Positions 16,622 through 41,372 of a stretch of 64,000 nucleotides of DNA are shown one piece after another. Location of the stretch: contig CAVNZM010000014.1 in the NCBI GenBank assembly GCA_963693365.1, positions 3,596,001-3,660,000 of the forward strand, written 5' to 3'. The notes under the pieces are model-generated. The model saw only the letters and a list, made by a program, of their open reading frames with translations. It made no database searches and had not been told where the DNA came from. The position numbers and the translations under genes were made by a program. The stretch's first letter is position 1; each line of letters starts with the position of its first letter. This stretch comes from Amoebidium appalachense. Taxonomy: Eukaryota; Protista; Ichthyosporea.

Positions 16622-19600
16622 ATGGACTTCTACTCGCAGGTGGCTGCGCACAGCATGCTGAGCGACATGGACTGGACAAACCCTAACTTGCAAGGCATAG
16701 AACTTGGCCTACCAACAGGCAAGTGTGGGCCTTTTTCTTGTTAGGGCCTTCTGCTTAGCTGTGTCCGCCTTTCAAAATGGGCGGGATCGATCATTGAAGG
16801 GAAATATAAAAGTGAGGGAGAGAGGGACGGAAAGAGAGGTTTTTTCCTTTCCATCTTGGCATAGAGAGAAAGTGCCAAAATGTTGGGTTTGTTTCTCCCA
16901 ACACACACTGCGCAGTCATGGGCATGCCCTTGCACCCCCAGGGCACATGGGCACTAAATGCAGATTGCAAAAAACAAAGCACCGAACTGCGTGCTCATTG
17001 TCTCCCCCCCCCCCCCCCCCCTTCCCCCCTCCCCCCCTTCTCCCCCCCTCTCCCCCCGCCCCCCCTCCTCCCCCTGTCAGTGTTCCTCCCAACCAAACAT
17101 CGTGAAATCGTGGGCGTGCCCCTGCACCCCTAGGGCACTTGGGCACTAAAAGCAGATTGCAGAAAACAAAGCACCGCACTGCGTGCTAATTGTCTCCCCC
17201 CCCCCCCCCCCCCCCCCCCCCCCCCCCCCCCCCCCCCCCCCCCCCCCTCCCCGGTGGCCCTTGAACGAACATGGATTTCTCTTCTTATTAGTAACTCCGC
17301 TTTCTCTCCGCGCACCCACCTTTCGTGTTTGTGTGCATGCCTGCACATTCTGCACAAGAACACACACACTCGTACTCGCACACTCGCAAGTGGACGAACA
17401 TGCACGGACGGCAAGCATATACGCACACATACTCACACACACATACTCGCGCGCACACACACACCAATACACGCACATGCACACGCGGGCGCGCACACAC
17501 GCGCACACACACACACACACACACACACACACACACACACACACACACACACACACACACACACACACACACACACGTGTATGCATGCACATACTCACCC
17601 GCAAACACCAACACAGCCGGCTCCCCTGAAGTCGCAGAAACCAAAGCAATGAAATGGGAGGCTGCGGAGGTTCATGTATTGTTTCGGATCAACGAAAGGA
17701 ATCTCGTGGGTGAGTGACACATACACACGCACACGCACGTGCGCGTGCGCGCGCGCGCGCACACACACACACACACACACACACACACACACACACACAC
17801 ACACACACACACACACACACACACACACACACACACATACACAATACACACACACAAACACACACACGCCCGCACACACACACATACACACACACATATA
17901 CGCTCACAAAAGAGACACACACGCACACACATGTATGCACACAAAGAGACACGCACACATTCCCGTGCACGCACACATACACGCCACAAGTGCACTTGCA
18001 CACACCCGAACATGACATGCATACACACACACGAGCACACACACAAATGCATCACGTGCACAGCCGGACTCTATTTTTTGGCCCATTCCCCCCTCCCCCC
18101 TTCCCTCCCTCCTCCCCCCCTTCCCCCCCCCTCCCCCACCGCACTTCCCAATGAACACATACAAGTACACGTGCACCTACACTCATTCTCTCACACATGG
18201 TCAGGTGGTTGCTTGGGCCCATCCCCTCCCTCCCCTCCCCCCCCCCCCCCCCCCCCCTTCCCCCCTTTCCCCCCTTTCCCACGACGCCCTCCCCTCCCCC
18301 CCCCCCCCCCCCCTAACACACACACACACACACACACACACACACACACACACCACCACCACCACCACCACCAACACCACCACCACCCCTTCTTTCCGAT
18401 ACACACACACACACACACGTGTACACATGCATGCACACCTGTACATGTTCTCTTTTCTTTTTTGTCTCTCCCTTGCACGATTGCACTCAACCAGGTGCAA
18501 TCTATAAACATTATACCATAGAAGAGCATGGAACATAGGCACAAGACCCAACAGTCTGCCCCCCCCCCCCCCCCCCCCCCTTCTTCTCCCTTTGCACCTG
18601 ACTCTGATCTACTCTCCTACCACCCCCTTTTTATCTCCCCCCCCCTCCCCCTCCCCCCCCCCCCCCCCCCCCCCCCCCCCCAAAAAAAAAAAAAAAAAAA
18701 AAGAAAGAAAAGAAAAGAAAAGAAAAGAAAGAAAGAAAGAAAGAAAGAAAGAAAGAAAAAGATAAAGATAAAGATAAAGATAAAGATAAAGATAAAGAAA
18801 GGGAAAGAAAAAAAAAGGCAATTAACCACCACCACCACCACCAACCCCCATCTTCACTTCCGGAAAAAGAAAGAAATCTCTTCAACCCCCCCCCCCCCCC
18901 CCCCCCCCCCCACCCACCCACCCACCCAATCCCCCGTGCGGCAATATTTCATGTCCTTTTTATGTATCTAAAACCTGCAATATTTCATGTCCTTTTTATG
19001 TATCTAAAACCGGCAATATTTCATGTCCTTTTTATGTATCTAAAGCCGGCAATATTTCATGTCCTTTTTATGTATCTTATTTCATGTCTTTTTTATGTAT
19101 TGAAACGGAAGCACCTCGCAGTTCTGGTCGACGAAGCGCGTTTTTTTGTTGCCGGAAAGACCAACAGCGATCTGTACGATCTACCCGATCTGCGATCCAG
19201 AAGCCAAATTTCCGATGGGCTGCCCATGCCGCCGGCAAGCGCGCCTGGGCCCTGCACAGGCGAACACTGCAGTTTTTGGGCCGAAGTTTTCATCCGATCG
19301 CACATGCACGCCGATCTGGACGTGCAGTATACGTGCCAGTCAATAGCGCAGGGGAGCAAAGGCGTAAATGGTGGGTGCCCTGTATCTGTTGGAGTTGGGG
19401 GCGGAGTGTCCCGGCTTGTAGCTGCTTCCTTGCGTCTTTGCGTCAGTAAACCATGAATGGCTGTGGGCATACAACCAAGGAGAGAGTCTCGCTGGCAATT
19501 CATACGCACGTCCCCTCTTCTCCCCTCCCTTCCCCCCCCCCCCCCGTCCCCCCCCCGTCCCCCCCCCCCCCCCCCCCCCCCCCCCCCCCCCCCACCACCA

Positions 19601-40600: not shown

Positions 40601-41372
40601 CAGGTTTGTGTGCCGGCCTGTGGACATTGTCGTGGTGAAGGGGTCGGTGGTGTGCACGGTGCACGAGCTCATCTGCATGAGGCACGAGGCATCATCCAAG
40701 CAGGTACGTGTGCACCCTCTCCCCCCTTCCCCCCCCCCCCCCCCCCCCCCCCCGCGCCCCTTCTCTTGCAAAAAGACGAACACCCTCCCTCCCCTCCCCC
40801 CTCCCCCCGCCCCTCCTCTTGCAAAAGGCGAACCATCCGCCAAATCCCCTGAAGTCCACTCGGACGTGATGCGTGTATTCAGCCCTTTGACTTCTGTGTT
40901 TAATCGATCGGGAAAAGTGTTTTTAAGTCTGGCGGGGTAGAGGAGGGCCGGAGGGTTGGGCGGGGGGTGTGGGAGGGGGTGCGGGGGGGAGAGAAGGGAG
41001 AGAGAGAGGGGGGGGGGGGGGGGGGGGGGGGGGGGGGGGGCTGGGGGGGATTCCTAACCTAAAAGCAAGTCACGGGCATGTATGTTGATAGACATGGGGA
41101 TCAATACACTTCCTTTAACACATCATTCATCCCCCCAGGTGCAGGCAGCGGCTTACTTCACCGACGCCTTTAAAGACTACGAGGCAGGCGTCTTCCACCG
41201 GGCAGCCCTGAAACTGCAGCTATTTTTAGAATTGTTTGTGCCCCACGACACACCGGCCAAATTGCTCCTAGCTGCCTCCAGATTTTACCACAAAAACCCC
41301 CCCCGGGCCGGGTTGGAATGGTTTGCGACCCGCGAGCCCAGACAAGTCGCGCGAGGATCTTTAAAGATCTGA
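16622..41372 (+). CDS. Membrane receptor adenylyl cyclase-like protein, ~1023 aa: C2 - TM - dCache - TM - HAMP - CTE - class IIIb cyclase - C-terminal helical tail
   Basis: 22 phase-compatible exons totalling 3072 nt: 16622-16718, 17617-17709, 19122-19370, 20311-20441, 21423-21536, 22582-22893, 24192-24346, 25369-25471, 26054-26203, 26564-26657, 27705-27791, 29742-29878, 31188-31295, 32265-32342, 34045-34153, 35365-35510, 37058-37168, 37759-37835, 38874-39049, 39736-39869, 40527-40703, 41139-41372. Motifs: TRPWY..WTDIY (dCache), [28 protein letters not shown] (HAMP), [13 protein letters not shown] (CTE), [65 protein letters not shown]. The true start may be upstream (frame open from ~16502). 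Confidence 0.88.
16917..17196 (+). repeat. Two ~90-bp direct repeats, each ending in a poly-C run
   Basis: tgggcatgcccttgcacccccagggcacatgggcactaaatgcagattgc...gtgctcattgtct(C)n at ~16917-17003 and a near copy at ~17108-17196. Confidence 0.85.
18940..19101. repeat. 36-bp tandem minisatellite (~4.5 units) just upstream of the 19122 exon
   Basis: Unit gcaatatttcatgtcctttttatgtatctaaaacc(g/t). Confidence 0.9.
20074..20121. repeat. Perfect 22-bp inverted repeat with a 4-nt loop
   Basis: AGCTCCAGAAAGGAGAGGGAGA-TAAT-TCTCCCTCTCCTTTCTGGAGCT; a near copy of the left arm is at 20017-20044. Confidence 0.95.
20455..20591. repeat. Compound trinucleotide microsatellite (AAT)/(ATT)/(ACT)/(GTT)
   Basis: Directly visible after the donor at 20442. 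Confidence 0.9.
27993..28123 (+). repeat. Diverged short copy of the poly-C-associated repeat
   Basis: GGATGACGTGGGCCCCCCTTGAGGATGGGCTC...GTGCACTTTGTACTCTTATGGCGCATTCAG(C)n. Confidence 0.8.
28690..29250. repeat. Higher-order (CA)n array with recurring gaacgcacacacgaatgacatg spacers
   Basis: Four units of ~120-160 bp are visible. Confidence 0.85.
29508..29668. mobile_element. MITE with ~25-bp TIRs and TA flanks (Tc1/mariner-like)
   Basis: TA|CAGACTATGTACCCCGACAGACTAC ... GTAGTCTGACAGCGTACATAGTCTG|TA; 3 mismatches between the TIRs; 161 bp; no ORF. Confidence 0.75.
30859..30972 (+). repeat. Diverged short copy of the poly-C-associated repeat
   Basis: CCTGAGGACGGGCTCTAC...GTCGTGAATGTTTACTTTGTACTCTGTTAACACATTCCA(C)n; related fragments at ~23387-23510, ~23740-23808 and ~45732-45782. 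Confidence 0.8.
33038..33201. repeat. Long perfect (GA)n microsatellite
   Basis: About 160 bp of uninterrupted GA. A complementary (CT)n-rich block lies in the previous intron (31311-31653). Confidence 0.95.
39290..39735. repeat. Degenerate ~55-65-bp tandem array (~8 units) ending at a splice acceptor
   Basis: Unit approximately accactcgcatattcgttctttatcccctgtcatccaatcatgtatttcaaataaa; the last unit ends ccaatcacAG. Confidence 0.8.

What the first reader, a model, noticed from the sequence alone, without database searches (positions are those of the whole stretch)
17617..41372. Chimeric receptor cyclase: eukaryote-type C2 domain fused to a bacterial-type dCache-HAMP class IIIb adenylyl cyclase
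Seen: exons 2-6 give the ordered strands of a C2 fold ([65 protein letters not shown]) in frame with TM1, with no DxD after the sixth strand. Known: TM-dCache-TM-HAMP-CTE-cyclase with MAFWNAP, NYTALG and LEGLNKxYGT is a bacterial one-component receptor layout, unlike animal 12-TM cyclases. Inference: a laterally acquired sensor cyclase, now with 21 introns, that gained a cytosolic, probably Ca2+-independent membrane-binding module. I do not know of this architecture being described.
Basis: partly seen in the sequence, partly recalled or inferred. Interest (0 to 1): 0.8.

Follow-up and report, generated by a model that had tools for sequence, protein, structure and literature searches.

The report
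C2-capped amino-acid receptor cyclase, old family
This is one real, spliced gene from a single-celled relative of animals that joins a predicted C2 domain to a bacterial-style membrane receptor likely to sense amino acids and make cAMP; the combination is shared across several such protists, and this copy has lost a key catalytic residue, so it is likely a weak or partner subunit.

Summary
Spliced contigs join exon 21423-21536 to exon 22582, and two contigs match a 22-exon, 21-intron, 1017-aa model to the base. The C2 call rests on homologs: the Sphaerothecum N-terminus folds as a type I C2 (Z 13.9) and the Chromosphaera one passes Pfam's C2 cut-off. The window's own domain could not be folded. 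The interpretation needs three changes. (1) It is not a recent or private chimera: the layout recurs in Ichthyophonida, Dermocystida and probably Filasterea, the tree follows the species groups, and C2-less versions occur in chytrids, Mastigamoeba and Pharyngomonas. (2) The sensor keeps 4 of 5 dCache_1AA amino-acid-binding residues. (3) The transition-state Asn, kept in 266 of 274 relatives, is Leu here, and this C2 lacks both the Ca2+ aspartates and the lysine groove, so membrane binding is unsupported. Eukaryotic Cache cyclases are already catalogued; I found no paper on the C2 form. A new variant of a known kind.

The parts
16622..16718 (+). Exon 1 (likely): ATG 16622, aa 1-32, GC donor
   Evidence: In frame with exon 2; 525 nt of contig lie upstream of exon 2; junction not seen directly
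17617..17709 (+). Exon 2: aa 33-63, predicted C2 beta1 and start of beta2
19122..19361 (+). Exon 3: aa 64-143, predicted C2 beta2, long insert, beta3, beta4 (donor may be 19363)
20311..20441 (+). Exon 4: aa 144-187, predicted C2 beta5 and insert
21423..21536 (+). Exon 5: aa 188-225, predicted C2 beta6-beta7, short loop without DxD
   Evidence: 3' end seen spliced to 22582
22582..22893 (+). Exon 6: aa 226-329, predicted C2 beta8, basic helix, linker, TM1 (about aa 290-312)
   Evidence: covered by contigs, both junctions seen; hydropathy
24192..26203 (+). Exons 7-9 (24192-24346, 25369-25471, 26054-26203): dCache_1 N-terminal helix and distal subdomain, aa 330-465
   Evidence: exon 7 junction seen; lengths fit the contig; colinear with P0001
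26564..27791 (+). Exons 10-11 (26564-26657, 27705-27791): dCache_1AA motif residues R467, W469, Y485, D515
   Evidence: Pfam MCP-like_PDC_1 E 3.1e-4 on exon 10 alone
29742..32342 (+). Exons 12-14 (29742-29878, 31188-31295, 32265-32342): dCache_1 proximal subdomain, aa 526-633
   Evidence: contig arithmetic fixes acceptor 29742 and excludes a candidate exon at 30544-30654
34045..34153 (+). Exon 15: TM2, about aa 648-670
35365..35510 (+). Exon 16: HAMP-like linker, aa 670-718
   Evidence: aligns with HAMP-scoring bacterial rows P0004 and P0014; no Pfam HAMP hit of its own
37058..37168 (+). Exon 17: CTE-like segment, aa 719-755
37759..40703 (+). Exons 18-21 (37759-37835, 38874-39049, 39736-39869, 40527-40703): class IIIb cyclase; D760, K800, D804, T874, R885 kept, Asn replaced by L881
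   Evidence: no hidden micro-exon in intron 20
41139..41364 (+). Exon 22 coding part: TPR-like helices and tail; the assembly carries one extra C at 41297; transcript runs to at least 41406
   Evidence: weak TPR hits in homologs P0029, P0153, P0197

Best explanation
The window holds one spliced 22-exon gene for a 1017-aa two-pass membrane protein of an old unicellular-holozoan family (predicted type I C2 domain, TM1, dCache_1, TM2, HAMP-like linker, class IIIb cyclase, TPR-like tail) that likely acts as a dimeric amino-acid receptor controlling cAMP, and this copy, which has Leu in place of the catalytic Asn, is likely a low-activity subunit that would give a full active site only with an intact paralog. 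Shown: splicing, exon order, residues, family membership. Predicted from homologs: the C2 fold and the dCache fold. Inferred: an amino acid binds the distal dCache pocket outside the cell; TM2, the HAMP-like linker and the CTE pass the change to the cyclase dimer. In a heterodimer this chain would supply the two metal aspartates (D760, D804) to a site completed by the partner's Lys/Thr/Asn/Arg, as in C1/C2 of animal cyclases (recalled mechanism). The C2 is likely a Ca2+-independent docking or targeting module, and the conserved basic helix just after it is the better candidate membrane contact.
For: Splicing and exact contig arithmetic. Full-length relatives of 1010-1698 aa from Amoebidium, Ichthyophonus, Sphaeroforma, Creolimax, Chromosphaera, Sphaerothecum and Capsaspora; the closest is P0150 at 38% over 911 aa, with the N-terminus alone at E 4.8e-13 among the proteins fetched. 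C2: P0028 model (pLDDT 61.7) matches KIBRA C2 at Z 13.9, rmsd 2.2 over 118 aa, and all 44 Foldseek rows shown are C2-bearing. Pfam C2 hits 4 of 7 N-terminal stretches, best 25.1 bits against a cut-off of 22. For the P0150 stretch, 21 of 30 Atlas hits are PF00168 clusters. Eight conserved blocks in C2 order across 6 Ichthyophonida rows. Motif R-W-Y-D in all 15 holozoan rows that cover the dCache (P0173 has none), with the first position Y in 7, F in 6, L in 1 and M here. The motif defines amino-acid binding and was validated in a Legionella adenylate/guanylate cyclase (PMC8915833). 7 of 9 N-glycosylation sequons lie between the two TMs. Closest solved structures of P0150 are CyaB and the next listed bacterial cyclases. 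Asn in 266 of 274 other rows, Leu in none. Sphaeroforma encodes both an intact (P0147) and an Asn-less copy (P0149), and Ichthyophonus P0148 has the complementary defect (first Asp to Gln).
Against: The window's own C2 was never folded. The P0150 model was poor (pLDDT 48) and gave no C2 match. A Dermocystida profile scored the window's N-terminus no better than shuffles (12 of 300 as high), and profile-profile similarity covers only beta6-beta8 (score 23.8 against a shuffle maximum of 18.1 in 60; probability 5.7%). The first motif position is Met, not Tyr. An Asn-less cyclase can be active: Ma1120 has Ala there and lost activity when Asn was put in (PMC4215837 passages). No genome is held, so an intact paralog in this organism is not shown; both Creolimax copies found are degenerate. 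HAMP has no Pfam support in the holozoan rows. No activity, ligand or dimer data exist.
Confidence: 0.5

Rival explanations
1. Same receptor, but this copy is an active homodimeric adenylyl cyclase that does without the Asn.
For: Both metal Asp, Lys, Thr, Arg and the second Lys are kept; Ma1120 is active with Ala at that site; the gene is intact and spliced.
Against: Four neighbouring positions also depart from the consensus (M878, L881, F882, E884); Asn is kept in 266 of 274 rows; the one-line title of Yan et al. 1997, seen only in a reference list, calls Asn and Arg essential in the mammalian enzyme.
Confidence: 0.27
2. The copy is a catalytically dead receptor (decoy or dominant-negative) that signals through its C2 or TPR-like ends or damps its paralogs.
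For: Repeated decay of catalytic residues in the family: 4 of 14 rows of the holozoan clade depart at one or more of D/K/D/T/N/R (window, P0148, P0149, P0151) while the sensor motif stays.
Against: Five of six canonical residues are kept, which is more than a dead enzyme needs; the window's grouping with the other Asn-less copies is unstarred (95/77) and may be long-branch pull.
Confidence: 0.13
3. The C2 is a lipid-binding module that recruits or gates the cyclase at the membrane.
For: Best structural matches of the P0028 model include PI3K-C2alpha, rabphilin and synaptotagmin C2 domains; the Dermocystida copies P0028, P0027 and P0026 keep lysine-rich beta3-beta4 strands.
Against: The window's C2 stretch is acidic (13 K+R, 27 D+E), has no lysine cluster in beta3-beta4 and no DxD after beta6; the same holds for P0150 and P0148. 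The protein is already membrane-anchored.
Confidence: 0.2
4. A recent bacteria-to-protist transfer fused to a host C2 exon set in this lineage only, or two adjacent genes merged by the model.
For: About 30% identity over the whole receptor part to bacterial-type proteins; unnamed bacterial-like rows sit in the same starred 33-row clade as the eukaryotes.
Against: The junction is spliced; orthologous architecture in at least six other genera; the tree follows Filasterea / Dermocystida / Ichthyophonida, each starred; 21 introns.
Confidence: 0.02

Closest known systems
Bacterial dCache_1(AA)-HAMP-class IIIb adenylate cyclases (for example the Legionella pneumophila cyclase WP_154766400.1 tested in PMC8915833)
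   Same: Two TMs, dCache_1 with the amino-acid motif, HAMP-like linker, CTE, Lys/Thr cyclase, TPR-like tail; colinear over about 690 aa with P0001.
   Different: About 285 extra cytosolic residues with a predicted C2 domain; 21 introns; catalytic Asn lost in this copy.
Naegleria Cache-containing bacterial-type adenylate cyclase, and Capsaspora E9BXE8 (PMC4822843, text and supplement row)
   Same: Eukaryotic dCache + Guanylate_cyc receptor; the Capsaspora row (1056 aa, dCache_1 369-694) has the same domain pair as P0030, though I did not match the accessions.
   Different: Neither entry records a C2 domain; chytrid, Mastigamoeba and Pharyngomonas members found here gave no C2 hit where scanned (P0200, P0223) or have short N-termini.
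Sphaerothecum Sdes_comp20790 listed as dCache_1AA in Dataset S3 of PMC8915833
   Same: This is P0028 itself, with the complete motif.
   Different: The passages read do not discuss it as a cyclase and state that all eukaryotic dCache_1 proteins carry a VWA insertion; this family has none.
Type I C2 domains of KIBRA, PI3K-C2alpha, rabphilin, synaptotagmin, RIM
   Same: Fold and topology in the P0028 model, Z 11-14.
   Different: 10-20% identity, long loop inserts, no Ca2+ aspartates; this copy also lacks the lysine groove.
Animal membrane adenylyl cyclases (pseudoheterodimers) and soluble guanylyl cyclase alpha/beta
   Same: Proposed split of catalytic residues between two unlike halves (inferred; PMC9552081 passages, and recalled mechanism).
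   Different: Single catalytic domain, 2 TMs, external Cache sensor, class IIIb Thr.

Membership tests
C2 domain, type I | Eight-strand beta-sandwich with type I strand order, in a family member | tested here: met
   P0028 model, Z 13.9, rmsd 2.2, 118 aligned to 2z0u_A, model range 4-165; Pfam C2 25.1 bits for the P0027 stretch
C2 domain, type I | The same fold in the window's own protein | tested here: inconclusive
   Not folded; nearest homolog P0150 gave pLDDT 48 and no match but C2 by Atlas features; P0148 stretch Pfam C2 E 0.048; strand blocks conserved; exon 5 alone gave no Atlas hit
Ca2+-dependent C2 | Acidic Ca2+ ligands, DxD after beta6 | tested here: not met
   Short loop without DxD in the window; 0 of 8 rows show DxD directly after the strand
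Phosphoinositide-binding C2 | Lysine cluster on beta3-beta4 (recalled) | tested here: not met
   Absent in the window, P0150 and P0148; present in P0028, P0027 and P0026
dCache_1AA | Y121-R126-W128 ... Y144 ... D173 (PctA numbering), 13-17 aa between the two parts | tested here: inconclusive
   M462, R467, W469, Y485, D515: 4 of 5, W-to-Y spacing 16; complete in P0026-P0030 and P0147
dCache_1AA | Binds amino acids | not testable with these tools
   Needs thermal shift or ITC
Class IIIb adenylyl cyclase | Two metal Asp; Lys and Thr purine selectors; transition-state Arg | tested here: met
   D760, D804, K800, T874, R885; P0150 closest to CyaB, E 2.3e-41
Class IIIb adenylyl cyclase | Transition-state Asn | tested here: not met
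   L881; Asn in 266 of 274 other rows; no alternative micro-exon
Bacterial one-component dCache-HAMP cyclase layout | Two TMs flanking the sensor; CTE before the cyclase | tested here: met
   Two hydrophobic peaks only, plus a marginal 1.6 window in the cyclase; CTE-like pattern conserved
Bacterial one-component dCache-HAMP cyclase layout | HAMP domain | tested here: inconclusive
   No Pfam HAMP on exon 16 or on P0026-P0030; aligned bacterial rows do score
Eukaryotic alpha2delta/CACHD1-type dCache_1 | VWA insertion in the dCache | tested here: not met
   Colinear with P0001 without a domain-sized insert; no VWA hit in 26 relatives scanned whole
Animal 12-TM adenylyl cyclase | Two six-TM cassettes and two catalytic domains | tested here: not met
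   2 TMs, one catalytic domain

The most novel reading that the evidence does not exclude
Unicellular relatives of animals have a G-protein-independent amino-acid receptor that makes cAMP directly: a second, VWA-free route of the bacterial dCache_1AA sensor into eukaryotes, which gained a C2 domain in early Holozoa and has split, independently of animal cyclases, into complementary active and half-active subunits that work as heterodimers.
Probability: 0.3. Interest if true: 0.78.

Novelty: new variant of a known kind. Interest (0 to 1): 0.55.

Why it matters
How protists close to animals sense nutrients and raise cAMP is little known. This family offers a concrete, testable receptor with a predicted ligand class, and Capsaspora, Creolimax and Sphaeroforma carry members. 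It is a counter-example to the published statement that all eukaryotic dCache_1 proteins carry a VWA insertion. If the Asn-less copies pair with intact ones, it would be an independent step from homodimeric to heterodimeric cyclases. The C2 is too diverged for Pfam's precomputed calls on the whole proteins, which probably explains why the architecture went unnoticed.

Tried and rejected
No genome is held for the window, so paralogs in this organism were not counted. The window's protein was not among the 25 hits of an exon search. Pfam on single exons gave no C2 (0 of the 4 C2-only exons and exon 6), and exon 5 gave no Atlas hit. The P0150 N-terminal model was low-confidence, and its Foldseek and VIA hits (flavin-binding barrels, Z at most 4.7) were disregarded. 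A profile search with alignment A1 found only 3 of its own members among longer proteins. Profiles against PDB sequences gave only insignificant hits, though C2 domains were 1 of 1 (E 1.1) and 2 of 3 (E 0.4, 0.95). A Dermocystida-only profile did not recognise the window's N-terminus. A candidate exon at 30544-30654 and an acceptor at 29766 were rejected by contig arithmetic. A hidden exon restoring the Asn was sought in intron 20 and none was found. Whether the C2 docks on the cyclase dimer is open: no complex model was obtained. Runs X24, X19 and X3 laid nothing, which is no evidence. No named choanoflagellate, animal or Dikarya protein appeared among the best 120 and 150 hits, but most rows are unnamed, 30 were looked up and the lists are cut, so loss in those groups is not shown. 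PMC12716839, PMC13466520 and PMC2447327 (term searches) added nothing. Look-ups of earlier findings by words and by place were empty.
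Full report
Gene structure. The window is intron-rich eukaryotic DNA full of simple repeats. I built an exon model by coordinates and tested it against assembled contigs of two runs of one sample. Their RNA label is a guess, but they skip introns at the modelled splice sites, so they derive from spliced RNA; they may be the window's own source. A 2582-nt contig lies on 22579-22895; its loose ends are the last bases of exon 21423-21536 and the first of exon 24192. 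A 972-nt contig joins exon 21 to exon 22 and, in both runs, lacks one base at 41297, so the assembly has a homopolymer frameshift and the stop is at 41364. The first match was thus partly fitted; the second was not. The result is 22 exons, 21 introns (mean 1033 nt) and 1017 aa. Only 3 of 21 junctions were seen directly, and exon 1 is inferred.

Family. An exon search found an ichthyosporean protein fragment, P0002, as the best-identity full hit. Searches with it gave full-length relatives named as Amoebidium parasiticum, Ichthyophonus hoferi, Sphaeroforma arctica, Creolimax fragrantissima, Chromosphaera perkinsii, Sphaerothecum destruens, Capsaspora owczarzaki and Pigoraptor chileana, then two chytrids, Mastigamoeba and Pharyngomonas. 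The closest is P0150 (38% over 911 aa). In a 63-row tree of the cyclase and tail (275 rows were first screened with FastTree; the subset held the eukaryote rows, their neighbours and named bacteria; P0007, P0152 and P0002 were too short in this region), the window falls in a starred Ichthyophonida clade (100/94). Dermocystida and Filasterea are also starred, and the three together form a 14-row clade at 93/88, which is not starred; the bootstrap had not fully settled. All eukaryote rows lie in a starred 33-row clade that excludes all 14 named bacteria but includes unnamed bacterial-like rows. Holding 27 eukaryote or eukaryote-like rows together is not rejected (p-AU 0.685), but that group was named after seeing the tree and this does not show a clade. 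So the organism is likely an ichthyophonid ichthyosporean, the gene was inherited vertically within Holozoa, and the bacterial origin is old. Donor and number of transfers are unresolved.

The C2. The window's N-terminus is clearly homologous to those of P0150, P0148, P0151, P0147 and P0149, and six Ichthyophonida rows share eight short blocks in C2 order. Pfam C2 hits 4 of 7 family stretches (2.1e-5, 0.0022, 0.0035, 0.048). The P0028 stretch folds into eight strands and matches type I C2 domains over its whole length. The P0150 stretch is called C2-like by language-model features (0.91-0.93), although a quarter or so of that score range can be chance and its AlphaFold model failed. The sequence link between the Ichthyophonida and Dermocystida N-termini is weak. 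I put the C2 call for the window at about 0.9, resting on position, block order and three separate weak-to-strong signals. In Capsaspora the blocks are visible by eye only and Pfam is silent; the Pigoraptor entry lacks its N-terminus. The window's C2 has no DxD after beta6, no lysine cluster on beta3-beta4 and is acidic, so neither usual lipid-binding mode (recalled) is present. A basic helix right after beta8 is conserved in 4 of 4 Ichthyophonida rows examined.

The sensor. The region between the TMs is colinear with bacterial-type dCache_1 proteins, and homologs score on dCache_1 below the cut-off. The amino-acid motif of PMC8915833 (passages, part 1 of Results, and supplement searches seen) is present at 4 of 5 positions, including the two whose mutation most hurt binding in PctA (R126, D173). 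That paper's Dataset S3 already lists P0028 with the full motif, but the passages read say all eukaryotic dCache_1 proteins have a VWA insertion, which this family lacks.

The cyclase. It is class IIIb by Lys/Thr and by its nearest structures. The exon lengths leave no room for a different exon, though this exon was not itself covered by a laid contig. Asn loss need not kill activity (PMC4215837 passages). Decay of catalytic residues recurs in the family, and intact and defective copies coexist in Sphaeroforma. From this I infer a low-activity subunit that pairs with an intact paralog (0.5), ahead of an active homodimer (0.27) or a dead decoy (0.13). The lipid-binding rival (0.2) concerns the C2 and is not exclusive of these.

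What is known. A Cache-bearing bacterial-type cyclase in Naegleria is stated in PMC4822843 (passages), and a Capsaspora dCache_1 + Guanylate_cyc protein is in its supplement (files 13-18 were not searched and file 12 is cut, so more may be there). Two earlier scan findings describe the Naegleria type. Full-text searches for C2 + dCache + cyclase, C2 + adenylyl cyclase + ichthyospor, chytrid + adenylate cyclase + dCache and unicellular holozoa + adenylate cyclase + cAMP + HGT returned 0 papers; two searches returned 3 listed papers, of which one was term-searched without result and two were seen only as listings. The library lacks most subscription journals.

Verdict. Real gene and real fusion, but a lineage-wide family rather than a one-off chimera: a new variant of the known Cache receptor cyclase. 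Interest 0.55; 0.78 if ligand sensing and heterodimer pairing hold (probability 0.3).

Noticed in passing
window 43578-46060, + strand: Exons of a Rab6-like small GTPase gene (label recalled from the translated motifs); a single-exon Pfam scan in one frame gave no hit.
   Followed up: partly
window 52950-56501, - strand: 1183-codon stop-free frame, Pro/Gly/Gln-rich, ending in a FAM193_C domain (E 2.4e-7); probably includes intronic sequence.
   Followed up: partly
window 16569-16622, + strand: A 17-codon upstream ORF whose stop overlaps the proposed start ATG at 16622.
   Followed up: no
window 24052-24095: Near-copy of the 5' end of exon 7, with its own acceptor, 140 nt upstream; both contigs use the downstream copy.
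   Followed up: partly
window 35627 and 35868: Degenerate copies (35 of 43 nt) of the 3' end and donor of exon 16 inside intron 16; the two contigs break at this exon end, which may mean alternative splicing or intron retention.
   Followed up: no
window 41297: One extra C in a homopolymer in the assembly relative to both contigs; it would truncate or alter any automatic annotation of the tail.
   Followed up: yes
proteins P0146, P0027, P0026: Three Chromosphaera paralogs carry consecutive gene numbers on one scaffold (evm38-40s2367), suggesting a tandem array; a fourth, P0164, has a short N-terminus and Asp for the Asn.
   Followed up: no
proteins P0200, P0223: Chytrid members have the dCache-cyclase core with long low-complexity N-termini and a partly kept amino-acid motif, although PMC8915833 reports no dCache_1AA in fungi.
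   Followed up: partly
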